Of a stretch of 64,000 nucleotides of DNA, positions 24,194-53,610 are shown one piece after another; position 1 is the stretch's first letter; each line of letters opens with the position of its first letter. The notes under the pieces were generated by a model, which had not been told where the DNA came from, ran no database searches, and saw nothing but the letters and a program-made list of their open reading frames with translations. The stretch is from assembly GCA_963575745.1 (NCBI GenBank), contig CAUYUJ010000002.1, forward strand, positions 1,488,001 through 1,552,000, written 5' to 3'. Both the position numbers and the translations under genes were made by a program. Origin of the DNA: Prorocentrum cordatum. Taxonomy: Eukaryota.

Positions 24194-27003
<2,810 letters not shown>

Positions 27004-27013
27004 CATGTAACGC

Positions 27014-27089
27014 TTGTGATGCCCACGCGCCCCTTTGTAGATAGAATCCAGGAAAACAGCGCGATAGGCAAAACATAGAAAAACATAGG
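27014..27089 (+). repeat. Left terminal inverted repeat
   Basis: TTGTGATGCCCACGCGCCCCTTTGTAGATAGAATCCAGGAAAACAGCGCGATAGGCAAAACATAGAAAAA matches the reverse complement of 50852-50927 with about 2 substitutions and 1 indel. Confidence 0.92.
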
Positions 27090-29025: not shown

Positions 29026-32000
29026 CTAGGACACCCGCTGCATCTTGACGGCCCTGCCCGCCATCTCGAGGAGGCCCGACGGCACGGACTCCTGGATCCC
29101 CAACTTCTTGATCTGCGCCAGCGGGTCCGTGCATTGCTTCCGCATCCTGCTCAAATCGGACTTGTCCGTGTTGGCCGCCACGTACGCCAAAATGCCACCG
29201 TAGTGCGCAGCCCTGGCCATGCGGAACAGCTTCTCACCAAGGTCGATTGCCGTCTTCGTCGGTCCCGAAACCACGTCGTAGAACTTGGCGGCTTTCACCA
29301 TCTGGCTGTGCTTGGAAACCAACTCGTCGAGCATCTTCTTCCGCTGCTCGGGCGAGTACGTGAAGATCGTGTCGCCAGCCGCAGTCACGCAATCCCCGAT
29401 GATGTCGGCGTTGGCAGCGGCAGCGTACCACATCGCACCGTCGGTACCCCCGCCTGCAATGTCCTCCCACTTGTTGGACGCCACATCGTCATCGAAGGCC
29501 TGCTTGTACATGCCCACCACTGCAGTGCTGATGAAAGTGATGTACGCTGGCGTGAGCTCGTCGTCAAGCATGCGCTTCATAGGGTCGGGCGCGCGCTCAT
29601 GCAGCTCGGACCTGATCGAGCTCATGGCCTTCGCAAGGCTGATTGCCTCCGCCATGAGATTAGCCCCAGCCTGCGTCACTGCAAGGTCCCTGTAGGCAGC
29701 GCGGTCCGTACCGAAGTGGTTCTCGAGTCTCTCGAGAAGGCGGGCCTGGTCGAGGGCAGCGCCCACGCATTTTTTCCACTGATCGTACCCCGTCGCCTGG
29801 ACCCAATTGAACCACGAAGCAATAGCATCGCCAATCGCATCCGCCAGGTTAGTAGTGAGGGTGCCTTCGTGCTTGTGGTGGTGGATCGCCTGCTCCACTA
29901 CAATGAACGCCTTGGCGATCACTCTCTGCTTGGCGCTTTCCTTCGTCGAGGGGTCGATGCCTGGGTAGACCTGCTGAGTGAACGTGACCGTCTTTGCCGC
30001 CATGAGGCGCCAGTCGCCACAAGAAGCAACGGCCTCGTGGGAGAAGAACAAGTCCAAGTCATTGAGGTAGGCCGCGGCAGCCTTACCAGTCTCCAGGACG
30101 GGGATGGCGTCGTTGATCTGCTTGAGGGTGTCCGCCCACTCGCCGCCGAACGAGAGGTGGCTGTGAACCGCAACGAACAAGGAGCGCTGGCACCCCCAGA
30201 AGCTATCGATGGCGGCGGAGGAGGATTTGTCCGAATCGATGTCACCGATCGCCCGCTTCACCTTGGCAGCCTCGTCATTCACCTTCGCACGAAAAAGGTC
30301 CTCGAGGATCTGCGCCGAGCCTGGCCGTGACTCCTTCATAAACGTGGAGAGCTCCTTCGCCATTGTGATCAAGCCATTCGTGGTCACGGCCTCACCAGCA
30401 CGCAACGTCGCAATCATGGTGTCGATCATCGGGCGGAGCTTCCGCGTTTGATCCATGTAAGGCTTGAGCTTGGTGACCATTTCCTTCGTAACAGTCTCTG
30501 TCCTCAATGCCGTCGCCAACTGAGTCCGCGGGTCCTTTATGTCACGTTTCGCATCGTTGCGAAGGAGGTCCAGGAAATCGCTCCAATGCTCCACTGGAGA
30601 AAGAGGGTCCATCAGGCAAGCGAGACCTCGAAGGCAAGTGAGGAGCTTGAGAACTGCTTCGACGGCGTCGTCCTCCATCTCCCCAGAATCGGTCCAACGC
30701 TCGATGACGTAGTTGATCATGGCCATGATATTCTGGTAATCCTTCTGGTCCACCAGCCGCGCCATGACGCAGCCTGCGATGAAATGCCGAGTGAAGAAGT
30801 CAATGAACATGAAGGACTTCTCCCTGATGGAACCATCGATCGTGTTGAGCGTGGGGGCCTTCGCGTTGAACTTGAACCTCTCGCCGTCTGCCTCCGTATC
30901 CTGCTGGGCTGCGCCCCCGGCGTCATCGCCAGCGCCGCCGCGCCTGCCCCAAGGCTCCACAACGTCCAAGAAGTGCGTCAACGTGTCGACCTTGCCGCTG
31001 ACAAGCAACGCCGCCGCGTCAGCGCACTCCCTGGTGAGCAGCTTCGTTTTGAAAGGCGTGGGGAAGTCCACCCCATGTTCAATCAGGTCACTCACGATCT
31101 TCTTAAGCCTCTCGATCGGCATGGTGTTCACGTGATCTTTCGGCTGGGATATCTCCTCCGCTAGCTTGCCCATGGCATAGTGCTGGTTGCAGGCGTTCAG
31201 TTCGTTCTTGAGGGTGGTGTCGGAGCTCTTGGCGTCGATCCAGTCTTTCAGCCTCCTGCGTTCCTTGCCCATCTTCTGACCCGAGAGGATGGCGACGATG
31301 TCGTACTTCATGATCGTGTGCTCCCACGCGCTCATGTCGCCAAGGTCGCCACATTGAGAATCTCCGTCGCCAGAGTCGCCGAGCGAGGTCCTCGATGTCC
31401 CATGGCTGATAGTCGACATGCCGCTGCCGAACCTTTGTTTGTTGATGCCCTTGTTGTCGGGCGTCCTCAGCTCCCCAGCCCCAGCGCCAGAGACGTGGCT
31501 GGTGACGTCCTGCACGTCGGGATCCTCATCGTCGCTAGCAGGAACTGGTGGCGGCGGCGACCCGTCGACCAACTGCTGTAGCTTCTTCTGCAGCTCCTTC
31601 ATTGTCAGCGCCGCAGCCATCCTCTTGCGATTAATATTCCACCCAGTGTTGCCCTTGTTCATCGCCTTGGTGACCATACCAGGCTGCTCTTTGCGGTAAT
31701 GCTTGCGCTTATCCAGCTTCGTCCGCTTGGTCGCAAGGGTCGACCTCTTGAAAAACCTGAAGCGCACGTACGGTTGGTTCAAATCCTTCATGAGCACGCC
31801 CTTGAACTTGTCGCCGTTGGGCCCCACGAGGTCTTGAATCTTGAGCCCTGCCTCCGACGGCTCGCGGCCCTGGGCGATCTCCTTGAACTGGGCGACGGTG
31901 AGGCCGACGCAGTCCTGTGATACCTCGACGCCAATGTCGCTGTCAGAGTCGATGCCAACCTCGTCGAAGTCCTTCACCTTCTCACCCCTCTTCACAACGG

Positions 32001-32376
32001 CACTCTCATCGAACCTCTCGTTCGTCTCCTCGTTATTGCGGCACTCCTTGCTCACATCCGAAAACGACCCTTCCACGGCCCACGAATCACGATGAACGGT
32101 GGCGCACTCGAGGCAGGCTGACCCGACGGGGACAGCGTTGCCATGCTCATCGGCCCCAGTCAAAGCCCACGGCTTCATGCTGCCAGGCGTGACACCACAC
32201 CGTTCGCACTTACAAGAGTTCCCCACTGGCTGGCGACCTCGGGTCGGCACCGACGGCCCCGATGCAGACTTGCTGGAGGCCGCCTTCTTCTTCTCTCTAG
32301 GCTGCCGTGGGGCTGACGAGCTGGCCTTCGACTCACAGTCACTAGACGGCTGGCGTTTCGCTTTCTTCCTGACCAT
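29026..32376 (-). CDS. Intronless 1,116-aa hypothetical protein: basic N-terminus, CxxC..CxxC/H Zn-finger-like motif, apparently helical C-terminus
   Basis: 3.35-kb uninterrupted, non-repetitive ORF with strong G/C third-position bias; likely start MVRKKAKRQ at 32376; CERCG...ACLECATVH. Confidence 0.85.
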   Translation of the reverse strand: MVRKKAKRQPSSDCESKASSSAPRQPREKKKAASSKSASGPSVPTRGRQPVGNSCKCERCGVTPGSMKPWALTGADEHGNAVPVGSACLECATVHRDSWAVEGSFSDVSKECRNNEETNERFDESAVVKRGEKVKDFDEVGIDSDSDIGVEVSQDCVGLTVAQFKEIAQGREPSEAGLKIQDLVGPNGDKFKGVLMKDLNQPYVRFRFFKRSTLATKRTKLDKRKHYRKEQPGMVTKAMNKGNTGWNINRKRMAAALTMKELQKKLQQLVDGSPPPPVPASDDEDPDVQDVTSHVSGAGAGELRTPDNKGINKQRFGSGMSTISHGTSRTSLGDSGDGDSQCGDLGDMSAWEHTIMKYDIVAILSGQKMGKERRRLKDWIDAKSSDTTLKNELNACNQHYAMGKLAEEISQPKDHVNTMPIERLKKIVSDLIEHGVDFPTPFKTKLLTRECADAAALLVSGKVDTLTHFLDVVEPWGRRGGAGDDAGGAAQQDTEADGERFKFNAKAPTLNTIDGSIREKSFMFIDFFTRHFIAGCVMARLVDQKDYQNIMAMINYVIERWTDSGEMEDDAVEAVLKLLTCLRGLACLMDPLSPVEHWSDFLDLLRNDAKRDIKDPRTQLATALRTETVTKEMVTKLKPYMDQTRKLRPMIDTMIATLRAGEAVTTNGLITMAKELSTFMKESRPGSAQILEDLFRAKVNDEAAKVKRAIGDIDSDKSSSAAIDSFWGCQRSLFVAVHSHLSFGGEWADTLKQINDAIPVLETGKAAAAYLNDLDLFFSHEAVASCGDWRLMAAKTVTFTQQVYPGIDPSTKESAKQRVIAKAFIVVEQAIHHHKHEGTLTTNLADAIGDAIASWFNWVQATGYDQWKKCVGAALDQARLLERLENHFGTDRAAYRDLAVTQAGANLMAEAISLAKAMSSIRSELHERAPDPMKRMLDDELTPAYITFISTAVVGMYKQAFDDDVASNKWEDIAGGGTDGAMWYAAAANADIIGDCVTAAGDTIFTYSPEQRKKMLDELVSKHSQMVKAAKFYDVVSGPTKTAIDLGEKLFRMARAAHYGGILAYVAANTDKSDLSRMRKQCTDPLAQIKKLGIQESVPSGLLEMAGRAVKMQRVS

Positions 32377-33503
32377 CGCAAGGAAGGGCGCGCCCGCTGG
32401 AGGCCGACCCGCCAAGTGCAGTGCAAAGTGCAGGTGGCACTGCAAGCCTCACATCTGGAACCTTCTAGAGCCCACATGCCTACGGCGAGCGATGGCGAGG
32501 GCAATGCCAGCTCCAAGTGGAACGCCGCCTCCTGGAACCGATTGGCCAGTCCAGGCCCACCCTTCGCGTGCACCAGACCCCACCCCCCCTGGCTAAACAG
32601 TCTTGGGCCCTTCTCATCAGCCCCCTATTGGTCTCGATAGCCTGGGCCTTCCCCAGACGGCCCCGACGCGGCCTATTGCTAGGAGCCCGACAGACGGCTC
32701 TAGATGACACAATACGGCTGCACCCCAGAGCCTACGGATAGCAACGACACCATCGCGCCGTCGGATCGTTTCTGGATGGGCTCTCTTAGGTATGTTGGAT
32801 CGTTTCTGGATGGGCAGCACCTGCGGTCATGGCAACTCCCTTGGATCGTTTCTGGATGGGCGGGTCAGGGGGGGGGGCGAAGCGCTCGAGATCACTAGAA
32901 CGACGCTGTTCGCAACCGCCTGCCCCCCTTTGATGTTTACGTTCTGGGGCATGCGTTGTTCGGGTTGTGGGGTTGGGGCGCCACGCCCTCGAGAGAAGCA
33001 TCGGGGCGAACGCTCTCTGCGGGTGACCCTGGGTGGCTGAGGGGGCGGATGGAGGGGGGAGATGCGGGGGGGAAGCGGGGAGGTGAGCTTGAGGGGGGCA
33101 GATCGCGCCCAGCCGACTGGGATGGCGGAAGAGGCCTGGGGGGAGGGACGAGGGAGGAGGAGAAGGCGGGAGGGACATGGCGGCGAGAAGGGCGGCAGGA
33201 TTGAGGGCGGGGACAGGCAGAATACAAGTGACGCCATGTGCAAAAATAATGCGTTTGATCAAAGTACTCTGGTTGAAGCTGCTGGCCGATGGCGGACCAT
33301 GCCGTCTCCCCTACACGCTGCGCTCTCTGGCGGCCACAACGTGCAATTGCTGCAACACCTGAAGCAGCGATCGGCATGGCGATTGCAACACGAACTGTAA
33401 AACCACCTATGTGCCGCCCGCGCGTGGTCGGCGACCTCGCGCGCTCGAGAGGCTGGCGCGTGCTGCCCAAAGTGCGGCTCTCAAACTGGCCACGCTCGAC
33501 TCA

Positions 33504-34274
33504 TCAGCTAGAGGGCGCAGGGCTGCCAAAGGCCGATGCCGCGTCTGACGACGCAGAGCTCGAGGGCGCACCCGCGTCGCCGCGCCTGACCGAGCTCGGG
33601 GACGACGGGCCCGTGGCGGAGACAGGAAGCACCACGGCGTCGGCGGCCTGCGCGTCAGCGTCTGGGCCCAGCAGCTCGCCGTCTGCAGCCACGATGACCT
33701 TCGGCGACGTGTCCACCGTGCTCATGGTCTTCACGATGTAAGACCTCTTGATGGTGACCTCTGGGCGGACGATGCGGAGGTAGTCGCTGTGAACCTTCGC
33801 CGATCTCGAGTGCTTGCGCACCACGTTCAGCTCTTCCTTGGTGCCAGGGGGGCCCGTCTGAACCATGCTGCTGGTGAGCCAACTCGGGAACTTGACCTCC
33901 TTGTGTGAGATCAGGAGCTTCGCAACCTCGTTCGGCAACTGCTGCAAGGCACTGGCAATCTTTGCGGGCGGCACTCCGACATGTTCCCCAAGCTCGACGG
34001 ACAAGAGCTTGATGTAGTTCGGCCGCTCCCGCTCCCGTGGGATCGGCTGCACCCTCGGGTTCGGCAACTGCCCTTCGCCGCCACCGACTGCACTGGCACT
34101 GCCACCGCCAAGGCCACTGGACGCCGCGTCTGGATGACGACAGATGTCGCCCACCACGAGGCCCTCCGACATCGAGTCATCCACGGCCATGGGTGCCGTC
34201 TCGGCCGCGGGCTGGGAGTCCCCAGAGTACCCGCCGACCTGCTGCCGATTGAACTCGTTCTTGTCCAGCGGCAT
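33504..34274 (-). CDS. 256-aa hypothetical protein with a possible HU/IHF-like (histone-like protein) core
   Basis: GC3-biased ORF from MPLDKNEF; central YIKLLSVELGEHVGVPPAKIASALQQLPNEVAKLLISHKEVKFPSWLT..IVRPEVTIKRSY resembles the HU helix-helix-strand pattern; low-complexity flanks. Confidence 0.6.
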   Translation of the reverse strand: MPLDKNEFNRQQVGGYSGDSQPAAETAPMAVDDSMSEGLVVGDICRHPDAASSGLGGGSASAVGGGEGQLPNPRVQPIPRERERPNYIKLLSVELGEHVGVPPAKIASALQQLPNEVAKLLISHKEVKFPSWLTSSMVQTGPPGTKEELNVVRKHSRSAKVHSDYLRIVRPEVTIKRSYIVKTMSTVDTSPKVIVAADGELLGPDADAQAADAVVLPVSATGPSSPSSVRRGDAGAPSSSASSDAASAFGSPAPSS

Positions 34275-34557
34275 CGCCGCGGTCTGCGCAGTCGCAGGCT
34301 CGAGACCGGATGGCCTCAAGAATGCCCTGGCGCGCGTACGAGTGCGTGCACAGCTGCTGCTGAGGCCTGGAAGGTCTGAGCAACAAATGGCAATGACGAG
34401 GAAGAGGTTGGAATGAGCCTAAGCATAATCAGCAACTCATGCCTCTCTCCACATCTAGCGCTGAGCCCTCGGAGTCAAGCGGACACACGGGGCTGGGGTC
34501 CAGCGCGATGGGGGCCCGTGGCGATGGTTCCAGGACTGGGCCCACCGCTGTTATATT

Positions 34558-35949: not shown

Positions 35950-38900
35950 ATGTAATATCTTGGGCCAAAGAGGCTACGGATGAAAACTGATGCTCTAAAT
36001 CAAACCCAGACACGTGCAAATATTGGCTTCTGCATTTTGGAACCCACCGCGTCTCCACAAGACGCCCTGCCCGCCAGGTCGTGAGACCCGAACCTGCTGC
36101 CCTCCGCCCCCCCCCCAGATACAAGACAAGGCCACGCAGGCGCCCTCTGGACCTAACGCAACTAATTGCGATGGCGCCGATTTAAACCCTGGGAGGTTGA
36201 TGGCGTCGCCAGCGACCACGGAACGCCGATTACAACTCGGCCGCATGGACAACCATATGCCGCATGCCGTTTAACGGTTGTAGCACGCTGCGGCGCAATC
36301 AAGCAAACCTAAGGCGATCGCGAAGAAGTCTTTCGCGCCGCATGAGCACAACGACCCGCGAGCCGCATAACGCGCACGACCGACCGTGCTAAGGGAACTG
36401 CGAAACGATTTTAAATCGTTGCATTCACTGCGCGCATCTCGCGAAAGCAGCGGGAGCTTCGCAATTCACAACCCCAACAGGAACACGGCGATGCCTCATG
36501 TGCATCACCCCAAGGCAACACTGCGTTGCCCATTCCAACGGCTCAAAAAAGCTGCGCCAAAACCCGCACTTCGCAAACCCGAGGAGCAGCCTCAGTATGA
36601 CTGATGCACGGCCTACCGCGCAGGCCGCGGGCATAATACAACGACGCAATCCCAGGAACGGCCCGTGGACCGCGCATCTAAGGGCCGCGCGCAGCAATGC
36701 GATGCGCGCTGTGACTCGCAACCCTTCAGGGCGCAGCTTACGCGCATGAAATAAGGGCCGCGCACGGCCCGTGGGGAGCTGCCAAACGCGGCATGTTTGT
36801 TTTATGTTGCCGCGTCGCGCCCCCACCGTGAGCGCGAAGAAATTATGTTCAGGCGCCGCGGCGCGGCCAACGAGAGCTACCATTTCCATGCCGCATTGCA
36901 GCGCGTGCGCCACCTTCACGAGCGCCAGAAGGCAATTCCCACCCGCGCGCAAGTCTCGGCGCCATGTTCGGCCCCGCGCAGCGTTGTGCCTAAGCTCCTG
37001 CAGAACTGCAACGGCCTATGGCGACCACCTGGCGCGCCGCCCGAATCGCCGTGTGCGCTATGGCATCGCATAAAAAGCCGCGTAAACAAACGCGCTCGCG
37101 AAGGCGTCACCCCCGCGCACGCTGAGAACGACTCCAACGCCCCGCCGCGGCGCACAACTCGACTCACCTCAACCCCTTGCCAGGCACCCCGACGGGGGGG
37201 TGCTAGCAGCTACCATGGCCCGTCCACATCTATGACATCAGCCGCCGCTGGCGCGAAACCCCGCGACGCCAGCGCAGCGACCAGCTGAGGGCGCGCCGCG
37301 CGGGATGATCGCGCGGCGGTGTTCGACGCCGCGCGATGTCAGAGCTATTCCGCGCCTTAACCGCAAATATCCAGTGAGTCTCGCTGGCGCCGCTGGCGTT
37401 CCGAGGGCGCAACTGGTGGCGCCGCAGCAAGTTACCCTATAACATCGGTGTCGTGTTTGCGCTGCGGCCGCCGAAAGTAGCGGACCCAGCTCTGGGCTCG
37501 GCGCGATGGTCAGCCTTGCAGGCCGCCGCGCCAGAGCCCCTACTTGGAATATTCTGGGCGCGCGCAGTTCTGTCGCGGTACCGTCAACATGTATGCCTCT
37601 GTGGGCGCCGCCGAAGAGTTCGCGTCAGTGCAATGCTGCGGCAGGACGACCGCGGCGTCGCGCAAGGGCACCGCATAGCCCAGAAGACCTCAGCCGCTTG
37701 CCCAGGGAACCCAACTGCCATTTGCACGAACACGCCGCTCGTGGACACATTCAACAGCAGCAGAGCTCTCTAAAGACACATCAGAACAAAGAACGCAGCG
37801 GACGCATCAATCGTGCACCCCTCCCGCCCCCCCCCCCCCCCCTGCCGCCATGCCGCTGCAAATGGCGTCTCCCGCCGCCCGATCGGACGGCGCGAACGTC
37901 GGCTTGGCCCCGCTCTCCATCACGCAAGAAAGCGCAACAAAACCCGACATGCCGTGACGCGCCGCCAGCGCATTCACTAGACTAGGGCACCATGCGTTCG
38001 AGCGCATTGCCCACGCGCCGCAGCATCCCCACCACGCCCAGCCCAGCCCACTCCGCCCCCCCCCCCCGCGCCCTCCTCCCCACCCCCCAGCCACCCGCCC
38101 CGCCTCGCGCCACCTCTACCCCGCGCCCGCACCCAACTCCCTTCAGAACGTCGCCAGGCTCGCGCAGAACTGGAACGCCGCCGAATTTGACCCCCCCTCC
38201 CTCCTGCCCCGTCCTCTTCCAGGCACGACAAGCATTCGTACGTGGCCCGCGCCCTGCAAGAGCAACGCAATGCTTTGCCTTGCACGAGAACCGATGCCCT
38301 GGGCCCGATGGCGGCGATGCATGGTGCCGCGCGGCTGCTTTTTTTCTTTTTTTTGTATTTGCTTTAGTTTGTTTCTTTGCTAACTTATGTCTTGGGTTAT
38401 TTACTGTCTTCCTTTTGTTTTTAATTTTGCTTGCTTATTCTTTGCTGCTGCTTTGTTATTTAATGTGTTTATTTTTTTTTATATTTACCTGATTGCTTCG
38501 CTTTTTCTTTTTTCTTCTTTTCTTGTTTTTTTTGCTTATATTATGCCTGTTGCCGCGCCCCGCGCAAAGTCTGCGCCGTCGGCGAGCGTGCCGTCGTCGA
38601 GACGCGTCGGCGGCCATGGTAGCGGCGACGGGCACGCGGGCGCGACGGCTCGGGCGGCACGGCGCGCGAACGCGACGGCGCCCGCGGCGACGGCTGCACC
38701 GCGGCGCGCGCGCGCGCGGCGCGCGCCCAGGATGGCGCCCAAGCTAACGGATGAACTTGCGCGCGCGATGCCCGAGCCGACGGCGCGCGGCGCAACGCGA
38801 CGCCCGCGCGCGCAGGCGGGTGACACAGCCGCGCCTTCAAGCCCACATCGCGCGACGCGCCCGTCCACCCCCCCGCGCCCTGCCCCCCCCCCCATGTAGA

Positions 38901-38980
38901 TCGCGCGCGGGTGCACCCCCCCCCACCCCCCCCACCCTCCTATAGATTGCGCACAGAAAAGGCAGAGGCGCGGCGCGCCT

Positions 38981-39153
38981 CTATGTTTTGCCTATCTGCG
39001 GCCTATGTTTTGTCAATGTTTTGTCAATGTTTTGCCAATGTTTTGTCAATGTTTTTCTATGATTTTTCTATGTTTGGTCTATGATTTGCCTATCGATAGG
39101 CAAAACATAGGCAAAACATAGGCAAAACATAGGCAAAACATAGACAAAACATT
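38981..39153. repeat. Internal inverted array of the 11-bp TIR motif (CTATGTTTTGC / GCAAAACATAG) around a perfect palindrome
   Basis: About 9-10 degenerate copies in one orientation, then about 5 in the other, flipping at TTTGCCTATC|GATAGGCAAA (39085-39104). Confidence 0.9.
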
Positions 39154-39986
39154 GAACGCGAACTTGGTGCGCGACCGCTCGCCTCCAACTTTTTCAGCAC
39201 CCAAACATTGATGGCTGCGCGCGCCTCCAATGATCACGCGCAGTGCCGATAGGCAGGCGAGCGCGCCCGCAATCGTGGTCGCCGCCGCCAGCGCGGCCCC
39301 AAGACGCGCGCCAACTCAACAAGGCGCGGTCGCATCGGCGACGACGCACATTCGCCCCCCCCCCGCCCCCTCCCCCCCCGCCCACCTTGGCAGCGCGCCC
39401 GCAGACCGCCAGGCGAACCCAAGCGATTCCCCGATGAACCCCGCCGCGGCAGACGAATCTTCGGGCCGAGCGAACGCAAGAGGCCGAACACCGCAGCGCA
39501 AAACGGCGCTGCTGCTCTTCGCGCGGACATCGGCTTCACGACAGCCCGACCGCCACCGACCGTTGTTTGCGCCCTTCTGCGCGCAATCGCGCGCGCCGCC
39601 CAGGGCCACCGCGCGCGAAGGTCAGCTGCGGGCCGCTCCTTCGCCCTTCCTCTTGCACATCTGCGTCGGCCGACCGCCAGCCAGCAATCACTTCGCAGCG
39701 CGGGCCGCCCATGCAACGCATGGCTGCAGCGCGCGCGAACGCAGCGCGCACTGCCGACCACATCGGGCGCGCGCCGCGAGCGGCGCCAACGCGCTGCGGC
39801 GCCGCCCCGAGAATCACCAATCACCCATGTCAGCTGAGCGGGGCTATGACTGGGCAAGGAGAGGACGAAACTGATGTTAGGGGATGTGGAGATAGAGCTT
39901 GCGCGGCCAGCCTTGGGTCATAGAGCAGAGGGCTGTGAACGGGACGTTCGCGGGCAGCGCACGCACCTTTTTTTTCGGTATACCCA

Positions 39987-42704: not shown

Positions 42705-45700
42705 TTACCTGAACGTATCGCACTCGCTATCCTCGCCGTCAACCTTGTCTCTCTCTTTTGACAGAAGAAGGCGGCCATCAGCCATGGCCTTCAACGCATC
42801 ACGGGCCGCCCTCCTCCGTAGATACGAGGGGCGGCAATGAAAAATGTGCTCCCTGGCCCCGACATAGTCATCGTGTGACAGGAGCCACGCCGCCAAGAAA
42901 CCAGCAGGCCTGCCGACCCAGCGCCTGGCTCCCGCGAAGCACTGCCGATTGACTTTGCACGCGGCCCTGCCGCCGTGGTCCACGCAGTCGCACAGCGCGA
43001 ACATGCGGCGGCTGGCCGCATACCAGACCAAGGTCCCGCCACCGAACCGCATGCTGATCGAGTCGCCGTACTCGTCAGGCGCGGCATGGCCAGCGCGAGC
43101 GGCAGGGGGGGCATCGTCCTCGCTCTCGCCCTCGCCCCCGCCACTCGCCTCAGCATCGCTACTTGATGACGAGGACGAGGACGAACTGGACGACGAAGAC
43201 GCTGAGCTCGACGAGGAGGCGGGCTCCTCCCCGCCCGCGCTGCCCTCGTCTTCGCCCACGTCGCCGCCGCCCTCTGCGCCAGAGTCGCTGCCGTCGTCGT
43301 CGATGGCGGCCAAGGCGCCCCAGCTGCCGCGCGGCTCTCTCGCAGCAGGCGGCTCCCAGATAAGCCGCAGCAAGCCGTCGCCCAAAAGCGATGTATTCAG
43401 GCGCCGTGGGCGCACGGCATCGAGGACGCCGTCCTTGTCCTTCGCAATCCAGAAACAAGCGTGCCATGTCAATTGTAAATCCAAGTCCCCCAGAGCCCGC
43501 ACGTCAATACTCTCGGAGTACGCATAATCAAGCATGACGTCATTCTCGAAAGCAGCCCGCCCCTCGCGAACATCCAGTGAAAAGCCATCTCCTGCCACCA
43601 GTATGCTGAAATCAAGGCGCCACGGCCGCTGGTGAACGTCACCGATCAAGAGCCACTTGGACTGGTGCGAGCCTGCATCGCAACGTTCATGGTCTTCCAG
43701 TGCCAGCGGGGGATCGCGCCCTATCAGGAGGACAACAACCCGAGCAGCCAATAAACTAGATCGCTCAGTCGAGCCAGCAGGGCACGCTGCCTTGGTCGCA
43801 GAGACAAGGTTGCCGATGCACCTGGCAATCTTGCGGCCCTGCCCACTGCAAATGCACATCCCAGCATCATGGCACTTGCGGTGTGTCAGTGGCGGCTCTC
43901 TGCTCCATGCAACGGTGCGGACCGGCAAATTGGCTGAGCGCCAGGCTTCGGAAGCTGCCTTGAATAACGTCTTCACTGGGCGCGTTGCTGGGTCCAAGGC
44001 CGCAAGGCGGTGAGCCACGTTCGCCAAGTCAGGCGGTGACCACATAACCCTATGGTACGAAGGTTCAGGTTGTGGGTCCGACCAACTTCGCTGCAGCATG
44101 TCAGTATCCATCACGGGCGCGCATCTCTCTAAGTATTCCTGCAAACCGCCTGTGCTGAGCTGGTACGCCTCTAACCTTCTGCGCTCCCTATCAGATATCC
44201 GCCTCGATAACATGGATGCGGCTCGCCACGCCTTCTTGCAATGGCGCAAGCCATCGATTGGAACGCACTCTGCGGTGTTGCCCAAGTCGCCGCTGAATGC
44301 AACTTCACTGGACACTCTGCGGGCGGCCAACTGGAAAGGGTTGTCCACCGTGTCTCCCAAGCGCTGCGCCTCGGACTCAATGCGGTCGGCAAGCTGGGCC
44401 AACGTGATGTCCCGAGCAGCGTGGCTGGCGACAGGCGCACCGCCGTCGTCCCCGATTGCAGTTTCCAGGGCATTCATGTCATCAGCACGTTGCTTCAAGG
44501 CGCGCTTGTCAGGGCCTGACAGCGCTTGGTAAGCCTCCGAGCACTCAGAGAAGGACGTGCACGCACGGGCCCGCAGCTGGTCACTACAGTAAACGGACCA
44601 CGCGCTGTGGAGACGTCTCCTGCGCCTCCCATCTGGCCTCTCAGGGCGCGCAAGGGTCGCGCCGCCACCGTCGACCTCAACTCGCTGCCCTGGCAACTTC
44701 CGCATCTCAGAATGCAACTTGTCAGCGTTCAACCGCTCGACGCTCACCCGCTTGGACTGCGCGCTCAAGCCGATGAGCCGACGCCGCGACGTAGCGTGCT
44801 TAGCTTCAATCTGCACTGTCTCCTCCCTCGCATACGTGGCCGTGGCTCGCAAGTGGGCAAGCAAGTCGGCTGACAGCGGGTCCCCGCCGTACGCCTCGAG
44901 AATGGCGTCCGACCACTGGTCTCGCACACACGGTCTGTCATCGAGTATTTCGGCTGCCACTCTCTCGCGCTCGTCGCCGAGCAGACCGAACAACTTGAAG
45001 GGGTAAAACCTATGAATACCGAACCCCACCCCCCTTACCCTGGGCGCGGCGGGCGTCGGCGACAAAGGCTTCTGGGGGGGGGGCGATTCCGCCAGCCCCC
45101 ATGGGCCATGGACCCCGGGCGGATCAACGCGACACCTGCGCCTCAGATTCTCTGTTCGATTGAGTGCCCGCCGTCCTACCAAACCCGCGCCGCGGACCGC
45201 GACGGCCCCAACACGAACCCAATATAGCAACACGTTGCCCGAGATGGCATCCAACATTGCTCCATGACACCTTCAAATGGCGGCGCAACCCTTTCCATAG
45301 CGCGCCAGTGCGTGCCACGCCTTCCGCGGCCGCATCAGCTGCCGCAGGCGTAGTCGATGGGCTGGGGCTGGCGGGGGCGCGAAGCGTCAAGAATTTAGTT
45401 CATTGGTTTGCAAACGATACGGTGGACACGTGGAGCGGCTGGCGGGGAGGGAAGACGGGCAAAAGGATGATACGGGCGATATGTGGACGGAAAGGTGGAG
45501 TGAATGGCGGTGGGTCGCGGCTATCCGCGCATGCCGCCGCGCCTCCCCCTTCTGTTGTTCGGCCTTCCAGCCGACGCCCGCCGCCCCTAGTCCACATCCC
45601 CACCCCCGTGGCTGTGTGGCGAACTCCGAGAAGGGGTTCGGTTCGGTAGATTGCTTGAACCTGTGTCTCTCCATCAACGCGTTGACCCTGCAGCAAGACT

Positions 45701-48700
45701 TCGCAGCAATCCTACCAGCCCTCTGGGCGTGGGTGGTCTAGGTCGCCCGCCCTGTTCAACCCCTACTCCTCTCCTGTCGGGGCGGGGTGCGATCCCCCCT
45801 CTACCCCCTTCTCCCTGGGCCTGGATGGCGCTCCATCGCGATGGATTGGGGCGACCTTTGGATCCAAGGATGGGTGCGTAAGAGTGCTCAAGATGCCGCA
45901 GCGACCGCCCAAGATAGCCATCCCTGGCCCAATATCGCCCACGACATGTCTACAAGTGGCCCCCACCTCGCCTCAATGCGGCCCCAGGACGCAACGCGGC
46001 AACGATGTCTCCCAAGGACGCGCCCGAGAAGCCAACTTCGCACCACAACCTTAGGGACAACCATGTGCGCGTGTGCTTCCTTTCTTGTCTGTTCGTCTCT
46101 TCTGGCGCCTCCAGCTAGCACTAAGATGACACCAGCGAGGCAACGTGCGGGCCCGAAGAGAGGTCCGAGGCGGGCCCGAGTGCGCTCAAGGGCGCACCAA
46201 GAGCGGCCCATAGGGCCATATGGCACTATGCGGCGACGGTTCGGGCCTGCGGGGGGCGGGGAGGGATGAAACCAGATAAATGCTCGCAGCTTTGTTTGAT
46301 CGAGGGTACCCCTCACACATACGTCCCATGCCCTCCCAGGGTGCCCCAAGACCCAAGATGGCCGTGCAGCGTACAGCGCCCCAATACGCCCCTAAGAGAG
46401 CCTTGGGGGGGGCCCAAGAGAGCACCGAGAAACCTGTACCCTGCAAACACCCTACGGGGAAACCACCAGAAAACATAGGAGGTGGAGGGAGGAGGCGGAG
46501 ATGTGCGAGAGCAGGAGGCCGCGTGGGCCCGAGCACCACGACCGTCGGCTTTCGTCGCAAAGGTGGCTGGTTTGGGATGTGCTGGCGGTGACACGCGAAG
46601 CGTACAGACTTGAAAACACCCACGCCTCCCTCTCGCCAGTGCGACCAATGGACGGTATGTGCGACCACAGCGAATCATCCATCATTACCACGTGCATGTC
46701 ACGAATGAACTCAGCATCGCGCCTCGCTCCGAAGACCTCAAGCATCCTATATGTGGGACGTGGGCCGCCGCCATCGCCCGCATCCAGTGCACGGACGGCC
46801 TGTGTGCGGTCCCACTCTTCCGATGCCAATCTGAGCAATCCTAACATCGCCGCGCAGGGCGAGCATGGCTTACGACAGTTTCTTCCCCTGCGGGGATATG
46901 TAGAGACTTACATGCGCCAAACCTTGGCGCGCCTGGGCGCGGCGGGCGGAGGGCGGCAGGAGCGTCCAAGATACCCCCATATAGCTCCAAGACTTGCGTG
47001 GGAATGCACACGACATCACCGTGCCACTTCAATCATGCCCAACGTGGCTCAAGGTAGCCCCAAGCCCCAACGGCACGGGCACAGACGATGCCGCGGCACG
47101 CAAACGCACGCATAAGGTAACCAACGGTCGTATTGGCACGCGCAACTACACCCGCCAACACTCACTATGCATGATGTGCTATTATTGTTGCTCCCCCTTC
47201 CCCCCCGCCGACCGTCCCCAAATTATCAAATTGCTGGCCAAGGCGATAACTCTAATTACACAGTGGGCCCCATACCCTCGCAACCTTGGGCCCGACCAGG
47301 GGAACTCGTGACCAGGACAACTCGAATGGGCCACGCATGGGCAATCTCATTAGCGAGCCTGGGCGTGTCGCGAAGCGTCACTGATTTGAACATGTACGCA
47401 CGATGAGGCTCCATGAGGGATCTAATTGCAAAGACGTCTGCGAATGGACAGTCGTACTCCCTCGTGGCCCAAAGGGGCGCTTCTCGCCGATGCCCGTCGG
47501 CGGCCGCGCGAGCGGCAGCCACTGGATCAGCAACGCCGCCAGAGCCAATCCCCAATTGCGACTCGCCTGAAAAAAAACAAAGAAGAGATGGGGGGCGGAG
47601 ATGAGGGGGGTGAAGAGGATGGCGGGTTTAGGGAGGCAGCCTGGTGCAGCATAATCACCAGTAGTACCAGCTCGCCTGCAGAACGTCACGAAGGCTTCAG
47701 CGAAAATATTGTGAACCGCCAACAAAACACCGATCCAGGACGGCGTGACCTCAGACCCAACCCAATTCCGACTAGGGAACGATTTAGGACCATCTCCAAC
47801 AAGCGCTTTCACGAACGTTGTCCGAAACAAGCGCTTGATGTACGCATCTGGCTTGTCAGATGTCGTGAAAAAGTGAACCCGTTCCGTATCATCCCAAGAA
47901 CCATTGGCCAACGACAATATGACAGTCCTGCGCTTGACCGCACTGGTATCGTGGAGGCCTGGCAACAAACGATACAACACATCTGCGTTCTTGGCAACAA
48001 CTCTGGGGTGCGGCAGCGTGTCCCTGACAATGTTGAGCCGCCTCATGACGATGTCTCCAACGATCTTGCGGAATTTCAGCATGCAACTGGGGCCCTTGAG
48101 TGCCAGCGCTGTGTGCGTGAGGGAGCTGATGAGGCCTGAACGAAGGGAACACGCATCATGTTTCGCAGTCGCTGCCCTGTGGACGTGGCACCTGTTGTGT
48201 AAAGCCAACTGCCCAGCATCCAGAACGCTGAAAAACCTCTCAGCCCCGGCGATCGCACCGTCGCCATCCGTGCACACAACCCTCTGCCTGTGCTTGAACA
48301 ACCTCGACACTCCAGACGTATCCAAGCCACTCGCCTCCACCGCGGCTGCGTAGTTCTCGCCTTTGCCAGCCGTCATAACCTGGATCGGCACGAGCACGTT
48401 GAAAGAAACCTCAGTGTATGATCCACCGATCTTGAACAACATAGTGTACAACCATTCTGTGTTCAACAATGGCAATTTTGACACATGAGTTGGTTCTCTG
48501 CCGCCGTCCATGTCGATCTGAGCTCTGGAAAGGTCGTGTCGCTCCAACGCGGTTCCAACTACTAGTTCCAAGGATGCGTCGTCGTTGTCAAAACATGCGG
48601 CTGTCAGCTTCGTCTCATCAAACCTGCACTGTTGAGAAAACAACATGCACCCGCCACCTGCACTTGTAACCCTCCCAACGCAAGCATTCATCATGCTGAT

Positions 48701-49447
48701 GGCCATTGCTCGTTCTGTCAACATTGCCAGCGCCATAAACCGTGACTTACATCTTGCGAACACCGACCTGCTAACTCCAGCAGCTTGGGCACTGACACTT
48801 TCACTCATCATATGGTTCGCCAGTTTGCCACGGATCGCATTGATCGTATCTGTTGCCACTTTGTCGAACATACCTGGTCTGTCAGGGTCCTCTCTTATGA
48901 CGCCAAGCGCAACCAACAATGGGTTATACAGGAGGCTACCGCGACGCTGCCGTTGAACATGCAGGAGGCCCCGTAAACGTTCGCAGTCCTGATCTAAGGC
49001 ACCATCTGGCGGCCCGACTGGACCAGCAACAACAATCTGCATCTCATCGGGCACGACGTCGCCAACGGCACCCTCGATGTCGGCTGGCTCGCCGTCGCCT
49101 TCAGAGGCGCCCTCGCCGTCGGCTGGCTCGACGTCGCCGCGCGGAGCTGCCAGCGGCGCGGCGATGTCCTTGGCCGCCAGAGCAGCACCAACGGGTCGCC
49201 ACAGCTCCTGGGCGGTGGCGCGCCGCCGACGCCGCTTAGCCCCCCTGTCCAGCGGAGGCCCGTCCCGCGCGGGCTCCTCGGCGCCGTCCTCGACAGGGCT
49301 CAACGAGCCTGCTGCTCCCGCGAGAGCCTCCCAGCCGCCCGCGTCGCCATCCGCGAACGCAGCCCAGCCGCCGCTGGGCGGCGCATCGGCCTCGCTCGGC
49401 GATGGGCTGGACGGCCCGACGAAATGCGCCCACCCCTCCAATGGCAT
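42705..49447 (-). CDS. Putative spliced DDE transposase, ~1,523 aa. Exons approximately 49447-47641, 47566-47387, 46840-46612, 45711-45661, 45009-42705
   Basis: Joining ORF pieces gives one continuous frame (4,572 nt). Motifs: RFDETK (~48618), VCTDGDG (~48267), RCHVH (~48185), TVQIEAKHA (~44806), HMG-box-like SAWSVYC..FSECSEAYQALSGPDKRALK, KCHDAGMCIC, C-terminal CDCVDH..C..GRPAGFLAAWL..H. Introns 1 (47567-47640, AG|GC..TTTCAG|G) and 4 (45010-45660, AG|GT..TAG|G) are clean; donors of introns 2 and 3 are uncertain; an AG|GT just before the stop could mean a further exon. Confidence 0.72.
45711..46610 (+). mobile_element. Family 1 Helentron-like insertion forming transposase intron 3
   Basis: CCTACCAGCCC...GCTGGCGGTGACACGCGAAGCGTACAGACT; precise removal (900 nt) at T|T restores the frame WVFS-IAAKS. 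Confidence 0.7.
46840..47385 (+). mobile_element. Degenerate family 1-like insertion forming transposase intron 2
   Basis: Right end CGCGAAGCGT plus 7 nt, left end CCTAACATCGCC; precise removal (546 nt) at T|T restores YMFK-LLRLASEEW. Confidence 0.55.
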
Positions 49448-49598
49448 GGAGGGGCTGACGCCTGAGCCAAAATGGCTACGGATGTGCCAAAGCAACAGAA
49501 CCTCTTGGAGAATTTGCAAGGCTTCTAATACCCCCGTTCAATGCAATCAGTCTTCGGAGGCTTCTATTCAATCAATACACGGGCGACTCTATCGTTAT

Positions 49599-50851: not shown

Positions 50852-50927
50852 CCTATCATTTTTCTATGTTTTGCCTATCGCGCTGTCTTCCTGGATTCTA
50901 TCAACAAAGGGCGCGTGGGCATCACAA
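50852..50927 (-). repeat. Right terminal inverted repeat
   Basis: TTTTTCTATGTTTTGCCTATCGCGCTGTCTTCCTGGATTCTATCAACAAAGGGCGCGTGGGCATCACAA, the reverse complement of the left TIR. Confidence 0.92.
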
Positions 50928-53610
50928 CGCTAACATGTAAATTATAGGTGCCTGCGGCGAGGTCCGCCCCCCTTGCCAGAGCAGTGATCTATATGGCGAC
51001 GCGTGGAGCTTTGACTGTTAAGAGGTCCTTGACATGTGACATCTCTCGTGTTTTCGGATTGCTGCGCGGCATTCTTTGGGGTCATTCGAGGCCTTTTGGG
51101 ACGACTTCGGGCCGTTGGGGGCCGCTTTGGCGCCGCGTTGCACCGCGGCCGCCCTGGGCCAGGGAAGCGTGTATTTGCGGCTCTCTCGGGGGCGCCCTGG
51201 GCCGGGGAAGTGTGTATTCGCATTCCCCCCCAGCTGGGCATGTCGACCTCGGTTCTGGGTTGGCAAAGTCGGGGCGCCCTCGAGGTGGCGAGCGTTCACC
51301 TTTTCGAAATACACAGATCAAGGTGTGATCTGTGTACACAGTTTGTGTCTTCAACTGTGTATTTTCGTGTGTGGGCCCGCTGTTTACACAGATCGTGGTG
51401 TGATCTGTGTACACAGATTTCGTTCCCATCTGTGTATTTGGAGTGTGCCCCTCGCGGGTGGTGTTGAATGGGCGGGAACTTTCGCGTTTCTCTTCCGGCT
51501 GGTCCAGGGGCGGCGTCGTGCGCGGTCGAAATACACAGTTCGTGTCTCCAACTGTGCATTTGTTGCGCGCCTCTCGCTGGAGTGGCCACTGGGCGGGAGT
51601 TTCCGCGGGTCTCCCGGCTGGTCCAGGAGGGGGCCGTGGTCTGGGTATGCAAAGGCGCGGGGGGGTGGGGATGGTGGGCTGTGGGAAGGAAGGGGTTCGA
51701 TTGGAGGGGTGGCCGAGGGGCCAATGATGAACGGGACTGGACGAGAGCGGAGGAAGAGAGCCCAGGAGGATTTGCATTATCGGCGTCAGCATCACGAGGG
51801 CGAGGGAGGTGGGGGAGGGCAGAAGTTGGGGGCATGATGTGCACTAGGGCGTAGAGGATGGGAGGAGGCCAGGCATGTGGACGATGGGGGAACGAATCCG
51901 GCGCAGGAGGACGACGAGGAACGACGTGAATTGACACATGGGGGGGCAGTGTAGATGAAGGGCATGATGAGGACCGGGGCAATCGGAGGGGCATGAGAAG
52001 GGTGGGGCCGCAGCGAAGGGATATTTGGAAAAGGCGGGGGATGGGGCATGAGTTCGAGGCGGGCGCCAGCTAACGATTAGCTGAACAGTGTTTTGCGTGT
52101 CCGCGCACCCCCAGAGCACAGTGACTGGTTGCAGAACTTCATGATCTGGGTAATCGTGCGCTTCGTGCTTCCAGGCCAAAGGCTCGAGTCCGCGACGCCC
52201 GTTGGCGTCGCGATGATGCCGCCCCGATCTGCCAGACCGCATATGCACAGATACGCAAAATATGTGTTGCAGCGTTTGTTTCATGACCCTCTCTATATGA
52301 ACAGACCCACGTTGGAACCCAAGCTGACGATGCTTCTACTATTTTGGCTTAGCGCCAGGCGCCCAGACCCACACATTTCTGGTGCAGCTGCTCGGTAGCT
52401 CCAGCGGGCCCGGGCGCGGGCGTCGCTTGTGCCGGAGGGCGCGCCGGGAACGGGCGCTCGAGCGGGCGGGAGAGAAGAGGGCGGCCGCGGAGGAGGCGGG
52501 AAGCGCCCCGCCCGCCGAGGGTCGCAGAGGGAGCGGCGTGCAGGCGGCCTCGGGCACCGAGGGCGGCGTGCAGCCCGGGCCCACACGTCCGACGAGATGT
52601 AGTTTGTTCCAGCGGCGAGGGTTCCGCGATCTCGGCCTCCCGGGACCCATCAGACATGGATCCGGGAGGAAAAGCTGCAGCCAACCCGCACAGCAAGGAT
52701 GGGTAACCCTCCCAAGGGCACCCTTGCATCTTTGCCTCCTCGATCCATCCTGGGCCAATTTCGTTGACCGCGCCACGCTCGAAAAGCTTCGAAACGGGCG
52801 TCTAAGGCCCGGGCATCCTCATCGCGCATCCTTATGATACGGGCCGACTGTATGCTTGGGGAGGCGGTGAGAGCTTCTGGGCCCGCGGATTGGGAAAGTC
52901 GTGTCGGCGGATGCCAGGGGACTCCCTCCCGTCATGACGAAGCCACGACGGCGGAGGGCTTCTGTGCCATCTTCTGCGTCGGGGGCCTTCTGCTGGCCCC
53001 CGGGGCCTCCAAAGCAGGTCTCGGGACGAGGAAAGCAGCTCCTGGGGGAGGGGGTCGAGACCTCCGCAGCTCCACGATGTGAAAACAACACGGGTGAAGA
53101 GGAGGGTGACATGGTGGGAGAGGGGTTGTTTGTCGTTTCTCGCCTTCTTTGGGCCCTAGGGTCTTGCTGGACGCAGCTCGAGAATGTGTCAGGATGTGGA
53201 CCAGGAGGGCCCCCTTCTGGTTGCTGAGAAGGGGGAAATGGTTGGGACGTGGGCGGAGGAATGCGGAAGTTCGAAGATCGCGGTGTTTGAACGCTCGTGG
53301 CATTTTCGATTGGGGGGAAGCCATGAACTCCCAAAAGCTATCCTAAACTTCCCCCCCTATCCCTTGAGCCCCCTGAAGCCTGCGAGGGGGTCCTGGAGGT
53401 CCCCTTGAGAAGGAGGCCTCCGCGGAGGTCTCTGAAGGCCCCCAGGCGCCCAACAGAGCGCACAATGACGCCCAACAACGCCCAAGGCTTCGACTCGAGA
53501 GCCTTCGAGAACCTCCCCACATATCCGACGCCGCTTCGTCTTTAGCAGCGTGGCTCCCCAGCCCCAGGGCAGGCTCCTCATCCCGCGCAGATGCTTTATT
53601 GTCCATGAGA

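What the first reader, a model, noticed from the sequence alone, without database searches (positions are those of the whole stretch)
38981..39153. Inverted array of the TIR-internal 11-mer near the element midpoint
Seen: the motif GATAGGCAAAACATAG from the inner TIR is repeated at ~11-bp (one helical turn) period and flips orientation at a perfect 20-bp palindrome centred at 39094/39095; the element midpoint is ~38970. Each ~12-kb half is thus bracketed by inverted copies of the motif. Inference: a central transposase-binding or synapsis site (by analogy to the internal cis sites of phage Mu), an iteron-like origin, or a scar from fusion of two elements.
Basis: partly seen in the sequence, partly recalled or inferred. 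Interest (0 to 1): 0.85.

Follow-up and report, generated by a model that had tools for sequence, protein, structure and literature searches.

The report
Central inverted repeat array in transposon
A 24-kb transposon-like element in a GC-rich algal-type genome carries, almost exactly at its middle, two opposed blocks of the same 11-base motif that sits just inside both of its ends, which looks like a third cluster of protein-binding sites whose role is still untested.

Summary
At 38981-39154 there are 10 degenerate 11-bp units on the minus strand and 5 near-identical units on the plus strand. They meet at a perfect 20-bp palindrome (39085-39104). The 16-mer GATAGGCAAAACATAG occurs exactly four times in the 64-kb window: once 58-59 bp inside each terminal inverted repeat (TIR) and twice in this array. 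The element (27004-50937, 23,934 bp) has its midpoint at 38970.5. The array is an AT-rich island (34% GC, flanks 71-77%) with A/T tracts phased at 11 bp.

The element encodes an apparently intact, intron-split protein of about 1,600 aa. It belongs to a large family with no Pfam model, with invariant D277/D394, a CxxH motif and a weakly supported RNase H-like core, so it is a probable DDE transposase.

My best reading (0.4) is a central cluster of binding sites for the element's own protein. The outer, cleavage-proximal TIR part is absent from the centre, which argues against two complete ends fused. No Rep-like gene was found to support an origin. A neutral TIR-derived minisatellite or palindrome remains a strong rival (0.3).

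No second copy could be examined, so conservation and function are untested. I rate it a new variant of a known kind, of moderate interest.

The parts
38981..39094 (-). Left block of the central array: 10 units of about 11 bp (consensus GCAAAACATAG on the minus strand). It is degenerate, and its polarity matches that of the right TIR.
   Evidence: period 11, 10.5 copies, 77% matches; also a 32-bp higher-order period
39095..39154 (+). Right block of the central array: GATAG followed by 5 units, 4 of them identical. Its polarity matches that of the left TIR.
   Evidence: period 11, 5.2 copies, 97% matches
39085..39104 (.). Perfect 20-bp palindrome where the two blocks abut. It extends to 32 bp with one mismatched pair.
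   Evidence: read directly; I6, I18
27004..27088 (+). Left terminal inverted repeat. The outer 59 bp are unique; the 16-mer follows at 27063-27078, then a second 10-bp-spaced unit at 27078-27088.
50859..50937 (-). Right terminal inverted repeat, with the 16-mer at 50864-50879. Further degenerate units (AAAAATGATAG, GGCCGCCGATAG) lie just inside it.
42711..49447 (-). Gene for a transposase-like protein of about 1,600 aa. It maps in four colinear blocks (49444-47630, 47492-47385, 46838-46563, 45014-42711) with no in-block stop codons. The gaps are compatible with introns.
29026..32448 (-). Orphan ORF of 1,140 aa (P0001) with a strong third-position GC bias and an N-terminal CxxC...CxxC stretch. 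It is a candidate second DNA-binding protein of the element.
33507..34418 (-). Orphan ORF (P0167, about 255 aa from its first Met) with a strong coding-type GC3 bias.
38865..38954 (+). Poly-C / GC-rich tract on the left side of the AT-rich array.
   Evidence: (family D3)
39355..39398 (+). Poly-C / GC-rich tract on the right side of the array. It belongs to the same repeat family (D3) as the left tract.

Best explanation
The array is a third, internal cluster of binding sites for a DNA-binding protein encoded by the element, most likely its ~1,600-aa DDE-type transposase. The same site lies 58-59 bp inside each terminus. About 15 sites are spaced one helical turn apart in two opposed blocks on an AT-rich, A-tract-phased stretch that is probably curved.

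A multimeric protein bound there could bridge the centre to both ends. That would organise synapsis of termini 24 kb apart, or alternatively hold back excess transposase.

Shown: the motif identity, its specificity to the TIRs and the array, the phasing, the polarity, the central position, and a probably intact transposase-like gene.

Inferred: that the motif is bound by protein, which protein binds it, and any effect on transposition. The array's size and its four identical units are best explained by tandem slippage or unequal exchange acting on such sites.
For: The exact 16-mer occurs only at both inner TIRs and twice in the array. The 12-mer core gives 16 hits against 3.5 expected, and 0 of 100 shuffles reach 16; 15 of the 16 hits lie in the TIRs or the array.

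A PWM built from array units finds its next-best sites in the window at the three TIR units (16.4-19.0 bits). The best site elsewhere scores 14.6.

The two TIRs differ by 6 mismatches and 1 indel, all in the outer 52 columns. The inner 28 nt, which hold the motif, are identical.

The repeat period is 11 bp in both blocks. T- and A-tracts recur every 11 bp, with 12 runs of 4 or more in 174 bp against 3.8 per kb in the element. GC is 34% against 71-77% in the flanks.

This is the only local inverted tandem array in a window that has 241 TRF rows.

The element carries a probably intact transposase-like gene. The family has conserved D277 (60/60), D394 (59/60), C420xxH423 and E/D566 (50/60). In the model these residues sit at the ends of the core strands and at the start of a helix. 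Fold matches are to the RNase H-like fold, including integrase cores, Hermes and ISCth4.

There is a precedent for the geometry. In Galileo the first transposase (THAP) site lies about 70 bp from the end, with further sites in tandem repeats (PMC3688188, abstract read). Herves transposase binds a short subterminal motif at both ends (PMC3143072, abstract read).
Against: No second copy or relative of the element could be examined, so conservation of the array is unknown.

Four identical units, and a left block with only 77% matches, are what a neutrally evolving minisatellite looks like.

Known transposase-site clusters are subterminal, not 12 kb from the ends.

The transposase assignment is weak. 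The family has no Pfam model, and all structural Z scores are below 8.

No target-site duplication was seen. The element looks low-copy in the one run that holds it, with even depth of about 10-20, so its mobility is unproven.
Confidence: 0.4

Rival explanations
1. A neutral by-product. A fragment of the inner TIR repeat reached the interior through an internal rearrangement. Possible routes are an aborted transposition, a hairpin-capped break copied into an inverted duplication, or a junction of two truncated element ends. It then expanded by slippage into a palindromic minisatellite with no function.
For: Four units are 100% identical, whereas the left block is 77% matched and has a 32-bp higher-order period, as expected from unequal exchange. 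The window is extremely rich in tandem repeats (241 TRF rows). The two blocks abut terminus-side to terminus-side, like a right-end|left-end junction. The stretch folds into a long hairpin (-63.3 kcal/mol, z -10.8), so it is the kind of sequence that hairpin or replication errors produce. TIR-internal tandem repeats are known to expand in foldback-type elements such as Tetris (PMC4079207; search listing with abstract start only).
Against: The outer 58-59 bp of the TIR are absent beside the array (best p about 0.03 in 8 tests), so the centre is not a simple junction of whole ends. The two halves share no other similarity. The near-exact central position (124 bp off in 23,934 bp) and the precise, spacer-free 20-bp palindrome are not predicted by this model. 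Long perfect palindromes are usually unstable unless tolerated or selected (established knowledge, recalled).
Confidence: 0.3
2. An iteron-type origin of replication, or another replication or partition cis-site, for an extrachromosomal phase of the element. It would be placed centrally so that forks reach both ends together.
For: There are helically phased short direct repeats in two opposed blocks on an AT-rich island between GC-rich flanks. The array has cruciform potential and a central position.
Against: No Rep, primase, helicase or polymerase domain was found in 12 large ORFs or in 97 ORFs from 32.4-42.8 kb (3 ORFs had only sub-threshold hits). The motif is shared with the TIRs, which fits a transposase site better. 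The unit is short for an iteron.
Confidence: 0.08
3. A transcriptional or silencing element. It would be either an upstream or boundary region between the transposase unit (right half) and the cargo genes (left half, all on the minus strand), or a hairpin-RNA source whose small RNAs target the TIR motif.
For: The array lies 3.6 kb downstream of the transposase stop codon and 4.7 kb upstream of the next clearly coding ORF on the same strand. It is an AT-rich island in GC-rich DNA. It forms a long hairpin and gives sub-threshold matches to miRNA-precursor models (best 49.1 bits against a gathering score of 139.7).
Against: The Rfam hits are far below threshold and only reflect a hairpin shape. 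No transcript evidence was available. A promoter role does not explain why the sequence is identical to the TIR motif.
Confidence: 0.1

Closest known systems
Subterminal transposase-binding repeats of eukaryotic TIR transposons: hAT (Ac, Herves, Hermes), CACTA (En/Spm), P/Galileo
   Same: A short motif is repeated near both ends in inverted orientation. The first copy lies a few tens of bp inside the terminus: here 58-59 bp, and about 70 bp in Galileo (PMC3688188 abstract). Further copies occur as tandem repeats. In Herves a short motif is shared by both ends (PMC3143072 abstract).
   Different: Here the largest cluster (15 of about 18-20 units) is not subterminal. It lies 12 kb from either end, at the midpoint, as two abutting opposed blocks. 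Binding has not been tested.
Phage Mu internal activation sequence (transpositional enhancer)
   Same: It is an internal cis element, inside a large DDE transposable genome, that contacts the transposase and helps assemble the end synapse (recalled knowledge; review PMC3145075 seen only in a search listing).
   Different: As recalled, the Mu enhancer lies about 1 kb from the left end, differs in sequence from the end sites, and is read by a separate MuA subdomain. Here the internal sites are identical to the end sites and are central. The host is a eukaryote-type genome.
Foldback-type elements and TIR-derived satellites (FB, Galileo, Tetris)
   Same: They have inverted arrays of short tandem subrepeats derived from TIR-internal sequence, and these arrays are prone to expansion (PMC4079207, listing with abstract start; PMC3688188 abstract).
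   Different: In those elements the arrays form the termini themselves. Here the inverted arrays are internal and abut with no loop. Their polarity is terminus-to-terminus, the opposite of a TIR-TIR deletion derivative. No duplication flanks them.
Iteron-type replication origins
   Same: Both have phased short repeats, an AT-rich setting and dyad symmetry.
   Different: No initiator gene was found, and the motif is shared with the transposon ends.
DDE transposases with an insertion domain and a C/DxxH motif (hAT, Mutator/IS256, P, Transib, CACTA, Kolobok group)
   Same: The family has invariant D277 and D394, a CxxH motif 26 residues after the second D, and an acidic residue (E/D566) after a helical insertion. 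The longest structural alignments are to Hermes (Z 6.2-6.5, 193-218 residues), and ISCth4 aligns at Z 5.8 over 147 residues.
   Different: There is no Pfam match for 27 of 27 relatives at E<=1e-3 and no shared family among 39 proteins at E<=1. All Z scores are below 8. The protein is about 1,600 aa with a conserved 800-aa C-terminal part of unknown fold. The superfamily is unresolved.

Membership tests
Class II TIR (cut-and-paste) DNA transposon | Terminal inverted repeats bounding the element | tested here: met
   27014-27083 matches 50927-50859 at 95.7% over 70 bp. The alignment extends to CATGT at 27004 and 50937.
Class II TIR (cut-and-paste) DNA transposon | Encodes a DDE/RNase H-fold transposase | tested here: inconclusive
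   D277, D394, CxxH and E/D566 are conserved. The model core has pLDDT mostly above 85. Fold matches are to integrase cores, Hermes and ISCth4, but all have Z below 8 and Foldseek E of 0.006 or higher. There is no Pfam hit.
Class II TIR (cut-and-paste) DNA transposon | Target-site duplication flanking the TIRs | tested here: not met
   The flanks are ACTACTAC and TAAATTAT, with no duplication of 2-8 bp. The left flank is a 2.8-kb (TAC)n array that may have overwritten a duplication.
Class II TIR (cut-and-paste) DNA transposon | Several copies or insertion polymorphism (mobility) | not testable with these tools
   No genome is held. One run holds the element at about 99% identity with even depth of 10-20, which suggests low copy number.
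Subterminal transposase-binding repeat cluster | Same short motif near both ends, in inverted orientation | tested here: met
   The 16-mer lies at 27063-27078 (+) and 50864-50879 (-).
Subterminal transposase-binding repeat cluster | Cluster lies within a few hundred bp of a terminus | tested here: not met
   The array lies 11.8-12.1 kb from either terminus.
Subterminal transposase-binding repeat cluster | Motif bound by the transposase | not testable with these tools
   This needs EMSA, footprinting or ChIP.
Mu-type internal transpositional enhancer | Internal site bound by the transposase that stimulates synapsis | not testable with these tools
   This needs a biochemical or genetic assay.
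Mu-type internal transpositional enhancer | Enhancer sequence distinct from the end-binding sites and read by a separate domain (recalled definition) | tested here: not met
   The internal units are identical to the inner-TIR unit.
Iteron-type replication origin | Phased short direct repeats in an AT-rich region | tested here: met
   Period 11 bp with 10.5 + 5.2 copies; 34% GC.
Iteron-type replication origin | Cognate initiator (Rep) gene in the element | tested here: not met
   No replication-protein domain was found in 12 large ORFs or in 97 ORFs from 32.4-42.8 kb. Orphan ORFs remain uncharacterised.
Foldback element or inserted deletion derivative (MITE) of the same element | Inverted arrays form the termini of an insertion flanked by a duplication, with inward-facing TIR polarity | tested here: not met
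   The flanks GCGCGCCT and AACGCGAA are unlike each other. The polarity is terminus-to-terminus, the opposite of a left TIR - right TIR derivative. The outer TIR part is absent.

The most novel reading that the evidence does not exclude
A large transposon of a so far unmodelled, widespread DDE-like transposase family uses a three-site architecture: two ends plus a central palindromic cluster of the same binding site. The centre would act as a synapsis organiser. Alternatively it would serve as an internal pair of pseudo-ends, letting each 12-kb half (cargo half and transposase half) be handled as a unit. I know of no described eukaryotic transposon with this bipartite design.
Probability: 0.2. 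Interest if true: 0.75.

Novelty: new variant of a known kind. Interest (0 to 1): 0.5.

Why it matters
If the central array is a working binding-site cluster, it would show how a very long (24-kb) cut-and-paste element brings distant ends together. It would also add an internal cis element to eukaryotic transposon biology, where only subterminal sites are established.

It also flags a large protein family (787 cluster representatives) that has no Pfam model and has probable transposase features. That family deserves classification.

If the array is only a TIR-derived minisatellite, it is still a clean example of end-sequence repeats seeding internal palindromic satellites.

Tried and rejected
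**Searches for a second copy**
- Whole-genome search: no genome is held for this window.
- Viral contigs: the array dimer found 0 stretches; the protein found 0 relatives; alignment A2 found 0 relatives.
I read all 121 in a script, and 0 show TIR or array context. Nine loci share an unrelated recurrent repeat that contains the 16-mer.
- Genome contigs with A2: one hit, L122. It lies antisense and out of frame inside a long peptidase-like ORF of an actinomycete, and I rejected it as spurious.
- Alignment A1 was too divergent for locus searches.
- Earlier findings of this scan: nothing.

**Sequencing runs**
- No RNA holder is listed.
- None of the listed contig pieces spans 38.9-39.2 kb, so the array's presence in other samples is unknown.
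- Joints such as 38933->39358 (run X3, 5 contigs, sides about 20 nt) connect poly-C tracts. I treat them as low-complexity artefacts.

**Proteins**
- Pfam found no family for 12 large ORFs. Of 97 central ORFs, 3 had sub-threshold hits only.
- PDB sequence searches found nothing.
- P0001 and P0167 have no homologues by word-indexed search. P0001 has no usable Atlas hit.
- Foldseek and VIA-align gave no match at E<=0.001 or Z>=8.

**Features of the array itself**
- Rfam gave only sub-threshold hairpin-type hits.
- The outer TIR compared with the array's flanks showed no significant match.
- No target-site duplication was found.
- I considered a MITE insertion of the same element and rejected it because the polarity is wrong.

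Full report
**Observation**

The sequence at 38981-39154 is as described. Read on the minus strand, the left block (38981-39094) runs outward from the centre as GATAG followed by ten units of the GCAAAACATAG type. One unit is 10 bp long and one is degenerate (GCCGCAGATAG). Tandem Repeats Finder gives period 11, 10.5 copies and 77% matches, plus a 32-bp higher-order period. The right block (39095-39154) is GATAG followed by five units, four of them identical (period 11, 5.2 copies, 97% matches).

The blocks abut without a spacer at a perfect 20-bp palindrome, 39085-39104. It extends to 32 bp with one mismatched pair.

The full 16-mer GATAGGCAAAACATAG is exact at four places only: 27063-27078 (+), 50864-50879 (-), 38981-38996 (-) and 39095-39110 (+). 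Allowing up to 2 mismatches, its 12-mer core has 16 matches in the window against 3.5 expected, and 0 of 100 shuffles reach 16. Twelve matches lie in the array, three in the TIRs and one elsewhere (38268, 2 mismatches).

I built a position weight matrix from the array units, so its hits inside the array are by construction. Outside the array, its best sites are the three TIR units (16.4-19.0 bits). The next best sites in the window score 14.6 and 13.3 bits.

The window is full of direct tandem repeats (241 TRF rows). Local inverted repeats of 30 nt or more within 200 bp occur at only two places: this array (5 of 7 pairs) and 51307-51436.

**The element**

The TIRs align from CATGT at 27004 and 50937 inward for about 80 bp. 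They differ by 6 mismatches and 1 indel, all in the outer 52 columns. The inner 28 nt, which contain the motif, are identical.

The element is 23,934 bp long with its midpoint at 38970.5. The array begins 10 bp to the right of the midpoint. The palindrome centre lies 124 bp to its right, giving arms of 12,091 and 11,843 bp.

No target-site duplication is visible: the flanks are ACTACTAC and TAAATTAT. The left flank is a 2.8-kb (TAC)n array that may have erased one.

Apart from the TIRs, the array and a satellite-like subterminal segment, the two halves share no similarity.

**Polarity**

In the left TIR the motif reads GATAG...CATAG from the terminus inward. The right block of the array has this same polarity, and the left block has the polarity of the right TIR.

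The centre has the geometry of a right end abutting a left end, terminus side to terminus side. This is the opposite of what a TIR-TIR deletion derivative (MITE) of the element would show if it had inserted there.

The outer 58-59 bp of the TIR, which should carry the cleavage site, have no significant counterpart next to the array. The best local alignment gives p of about 0.03 in 8 tests against shuffles. The centre is therefore not two complete ends.

**Physical character**

The array is 34% GC, between flanks of 77% and 71% GC that contain poly-C tracts of one repeat family (D3).

T-tracts in the left block and A-tracts in the right block recur every 11 bp. There are 12 runs of 4 or more in 174 bp, against 3.8 per kb in the element. 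From established knowledge of phased A-tracts, this predicts intrinsically curved DNA. That is an inference and was not computed.

As a single strand, the region folds into one long hairpin (-63.3 kcal/mol, z = -10.8, 0 of 200 shuffles as stable), so it could extrude a cruciform.

**Genes**

Three minus-strand reading frames stand out.

- P0003 (47378-49537) and P0002 (42705-45272) are the N- and C-terminal parts of one protein family of about 1,600-1,700 aa. P0002 aligns to residues 815-1641 of P0006 (E 2e-74) and to residues 867-1690 of P0008 (E 1e-88).
- tblastn with seven relatives maps the gene colinearly in four blocks: 49444-47630, 47492-47385, 46838-46563 and 45014-42711. There are no in-block stop codons, and the block boundaries are contiguous in the protein. 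This fits introns and an intact gene, but splicing was not verified.
- The family is large: 787 cluster representatives at E<=1e-3, 253 at <=1e-10 and 19 at <=1e-30.
- The family has no Pfam model. There were 0 families for 27 of 27 relatives at E<=1e-3, and no family was shared by more than 2 of 39 proteins at E<=1.
- The closest named relative is a 154-aa transcript fragment labelled Pyramimonas sp. CCMP1952 by its source (83% identity).

In a 60-sequence alignment, D277 is invariant, D394 is D in 59 of 60, C420 is 90% or more conserved with H423 invariant, and position 566 is E or D in 50 of 60.

The AlphaFold model has mean pLDDT 72.2, with the core at residues ~190-595 mostly above 85. 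It places D394 right after a strand, CxxH at the start of the helix after the next strand, and E566 at the start of a helix that follows a helical insertion.

The fold searches point to an RNase H-like core but are weak:

- Foldseek's best hit is the ISCth4 transposase (E 5.8e-3), followed by integrases, RNase HI, Hermes, Mos1 and P element transposase.
- VIA-align gives Z of 7.4 or less.
- Integrase cores reach Z 6.0-6.8 over about 80 residues.
- Hermes reaches Z 6.2-6.5 over 193-218 residues, the longest alignment.
- ISCth4 reaches Z 5.8 over 147 residues.

I call the protein a probable DDE transposase of the group that carries a CxxH motif and an insertion domain (group definition recalled). 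Its superfamily is unresolved.

P0001 (1,140 aa, GC1/2/3 = 0.57/0.44/0.79) and P0167 (0.63/0.54/0.79) look coding. Neither has detectable relatives.

Between 34.4 and 42.7 kb there is no clear coding signal and no Pfam family above threshold in 97 ORFs. The array therefore sits in an apparently non-coding stretch of about 8 kb. It is 3.6 kb downstream of the transposase stop codon.

**Other copies**

This was the test that would have mattered most, and it could not be done.

- No genome is held for the window.
- Scans of viral contigs found nothing.
None has the TIR or array context.
- The single genome-contig hit is spurious.
- One run (X1) holds the element's interior at about 99% identity. 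Its eight listed pieces carry 4-22 differences per 795-1,828 bp, at even depth of about 10-20, which suggests a low-copy element in a related strain. None of the listed pieces crosses the array.

**Interpretation**

The pattern has four parts. The motif is specific to the inner TIRs and the array. The motif lies in the only undiverged part of the TIRs. The first copy sits 58-59 bp from the terminus. The units are helically phased.

This is the signature of transposase (or accessory-protein) binding sites. Comparable cases are Galileo, where the first THAP site lies about 70 bp from the end and further sites lie in tandem repeats (PMC3688188, abstract), and Herves (PMC3143072, abstract).

What is unusual is that the main cluster is central and palindromic. 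I therefore favour (0.4) an internal binding-site cluster that helps synapse ends 24 kb apart or that titrates the protein.

The main rival (0.3) is a functionless TIR-derived palindromic minisatellite. It is supported by the four identical units, the repeat-prone genome and the hairpin-forming geometry. An iteron origin (0.08) has only the geometry in its favour and no initiator gene. A promoter, boundary or hairpin-RNA role (0.1) rests on position and on sub-threshold Rfam hairpin hits. The remaining probability is for none of these.

**Novelty**

Binding-site repeats near transposon ends are a known kind. A central, abutting inverted array of the end motif, in a large element of an unmodelled transposase-like family, is a new variant.

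I did not find such an architecture in the papers listed by my searches. These were keyword searches of open-access text and do not show that it is not in print. Repbase-type transposon libraries were not available, so the protein family may already have a name there.

Noticed in passing
window 42711-49447 (-): The transposase-like protein belongs to a large family of proteins up to about 1,700 aa. The family has 787 cluster representatives at E<=1e-3 and no Pfam model. It has a conserved 800-aa Cys-rich C-terminal part. The closest named relative is a Pyramimonas sp. transcript fragment (83% identity). The family deserves classification in its own right.
   Followed up: partly
window 24195-27003 and 42268-42449: A 2.8-kb (TAC)n microsatellite runs right up to the left TIR. 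A 180-bp (GTA)n tract of the same repeat, in inverted orientation, lies inside the element just downstream of the transposase gene.
   Followed up: no
window 27729-28400 and 49597-50271: A subterminal segment of about 0.69 kb is repeated in direct, not inverted, orientation near both ends (77% identity). It is built largely of ~11-bp CCAAGATGGCC-type repeats. These also occur outside the element (57.3 and 58.4 kb) and are very high-copy in all four runs laid.
   Followed up: partly
window 51307-51436: Two overlapping-arm palindromes (TACACAGATC...GATCTGTGTA type) lie 370-500 bp outside the right TIR. Apart from the array, they are the only local inverted repeats in the window.
   Followed up: no
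window 29026-32448 (-) and 33507-34418 (-): Two orphan ORFs (1,140 aa and about 255 aa) have a much stronger third-position GC bias than the transposase gene, and no detectable relatives. The larger one starts with a CxxC...CxxC stretch.
   Followed up: partly
window 38865-38954 and 39355-39398: Poly-C / GC-rich tracts of one repeat family flank the AT-rich array on both sides. In the laid runs, short contigs join such tracts to each other, and I take these joins to be low-complexity artefacts.
   Followed up: no
L005/L006, L014, L029, L039, L045, L064, L066, L111 (around the 16-mer match): Nine metagenome loci share an unrelated, well-conserved repeat that happens to contain the same 16-mer inside a short dyad (…CTACGCAC-16-mer-TGCG…AGTAG…). 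In L005 two copies lie inverted 700 bp apart. Its nature is unknown.
   Followed up: no
window 1-24000: The left part of the window is a mosaic of many tandem-repeat families (periods 12, 24, 41, 64, 77 and others) and of kilobase-scale repeated units. The element sits in a very repeat-rich region.
   Followed up: no
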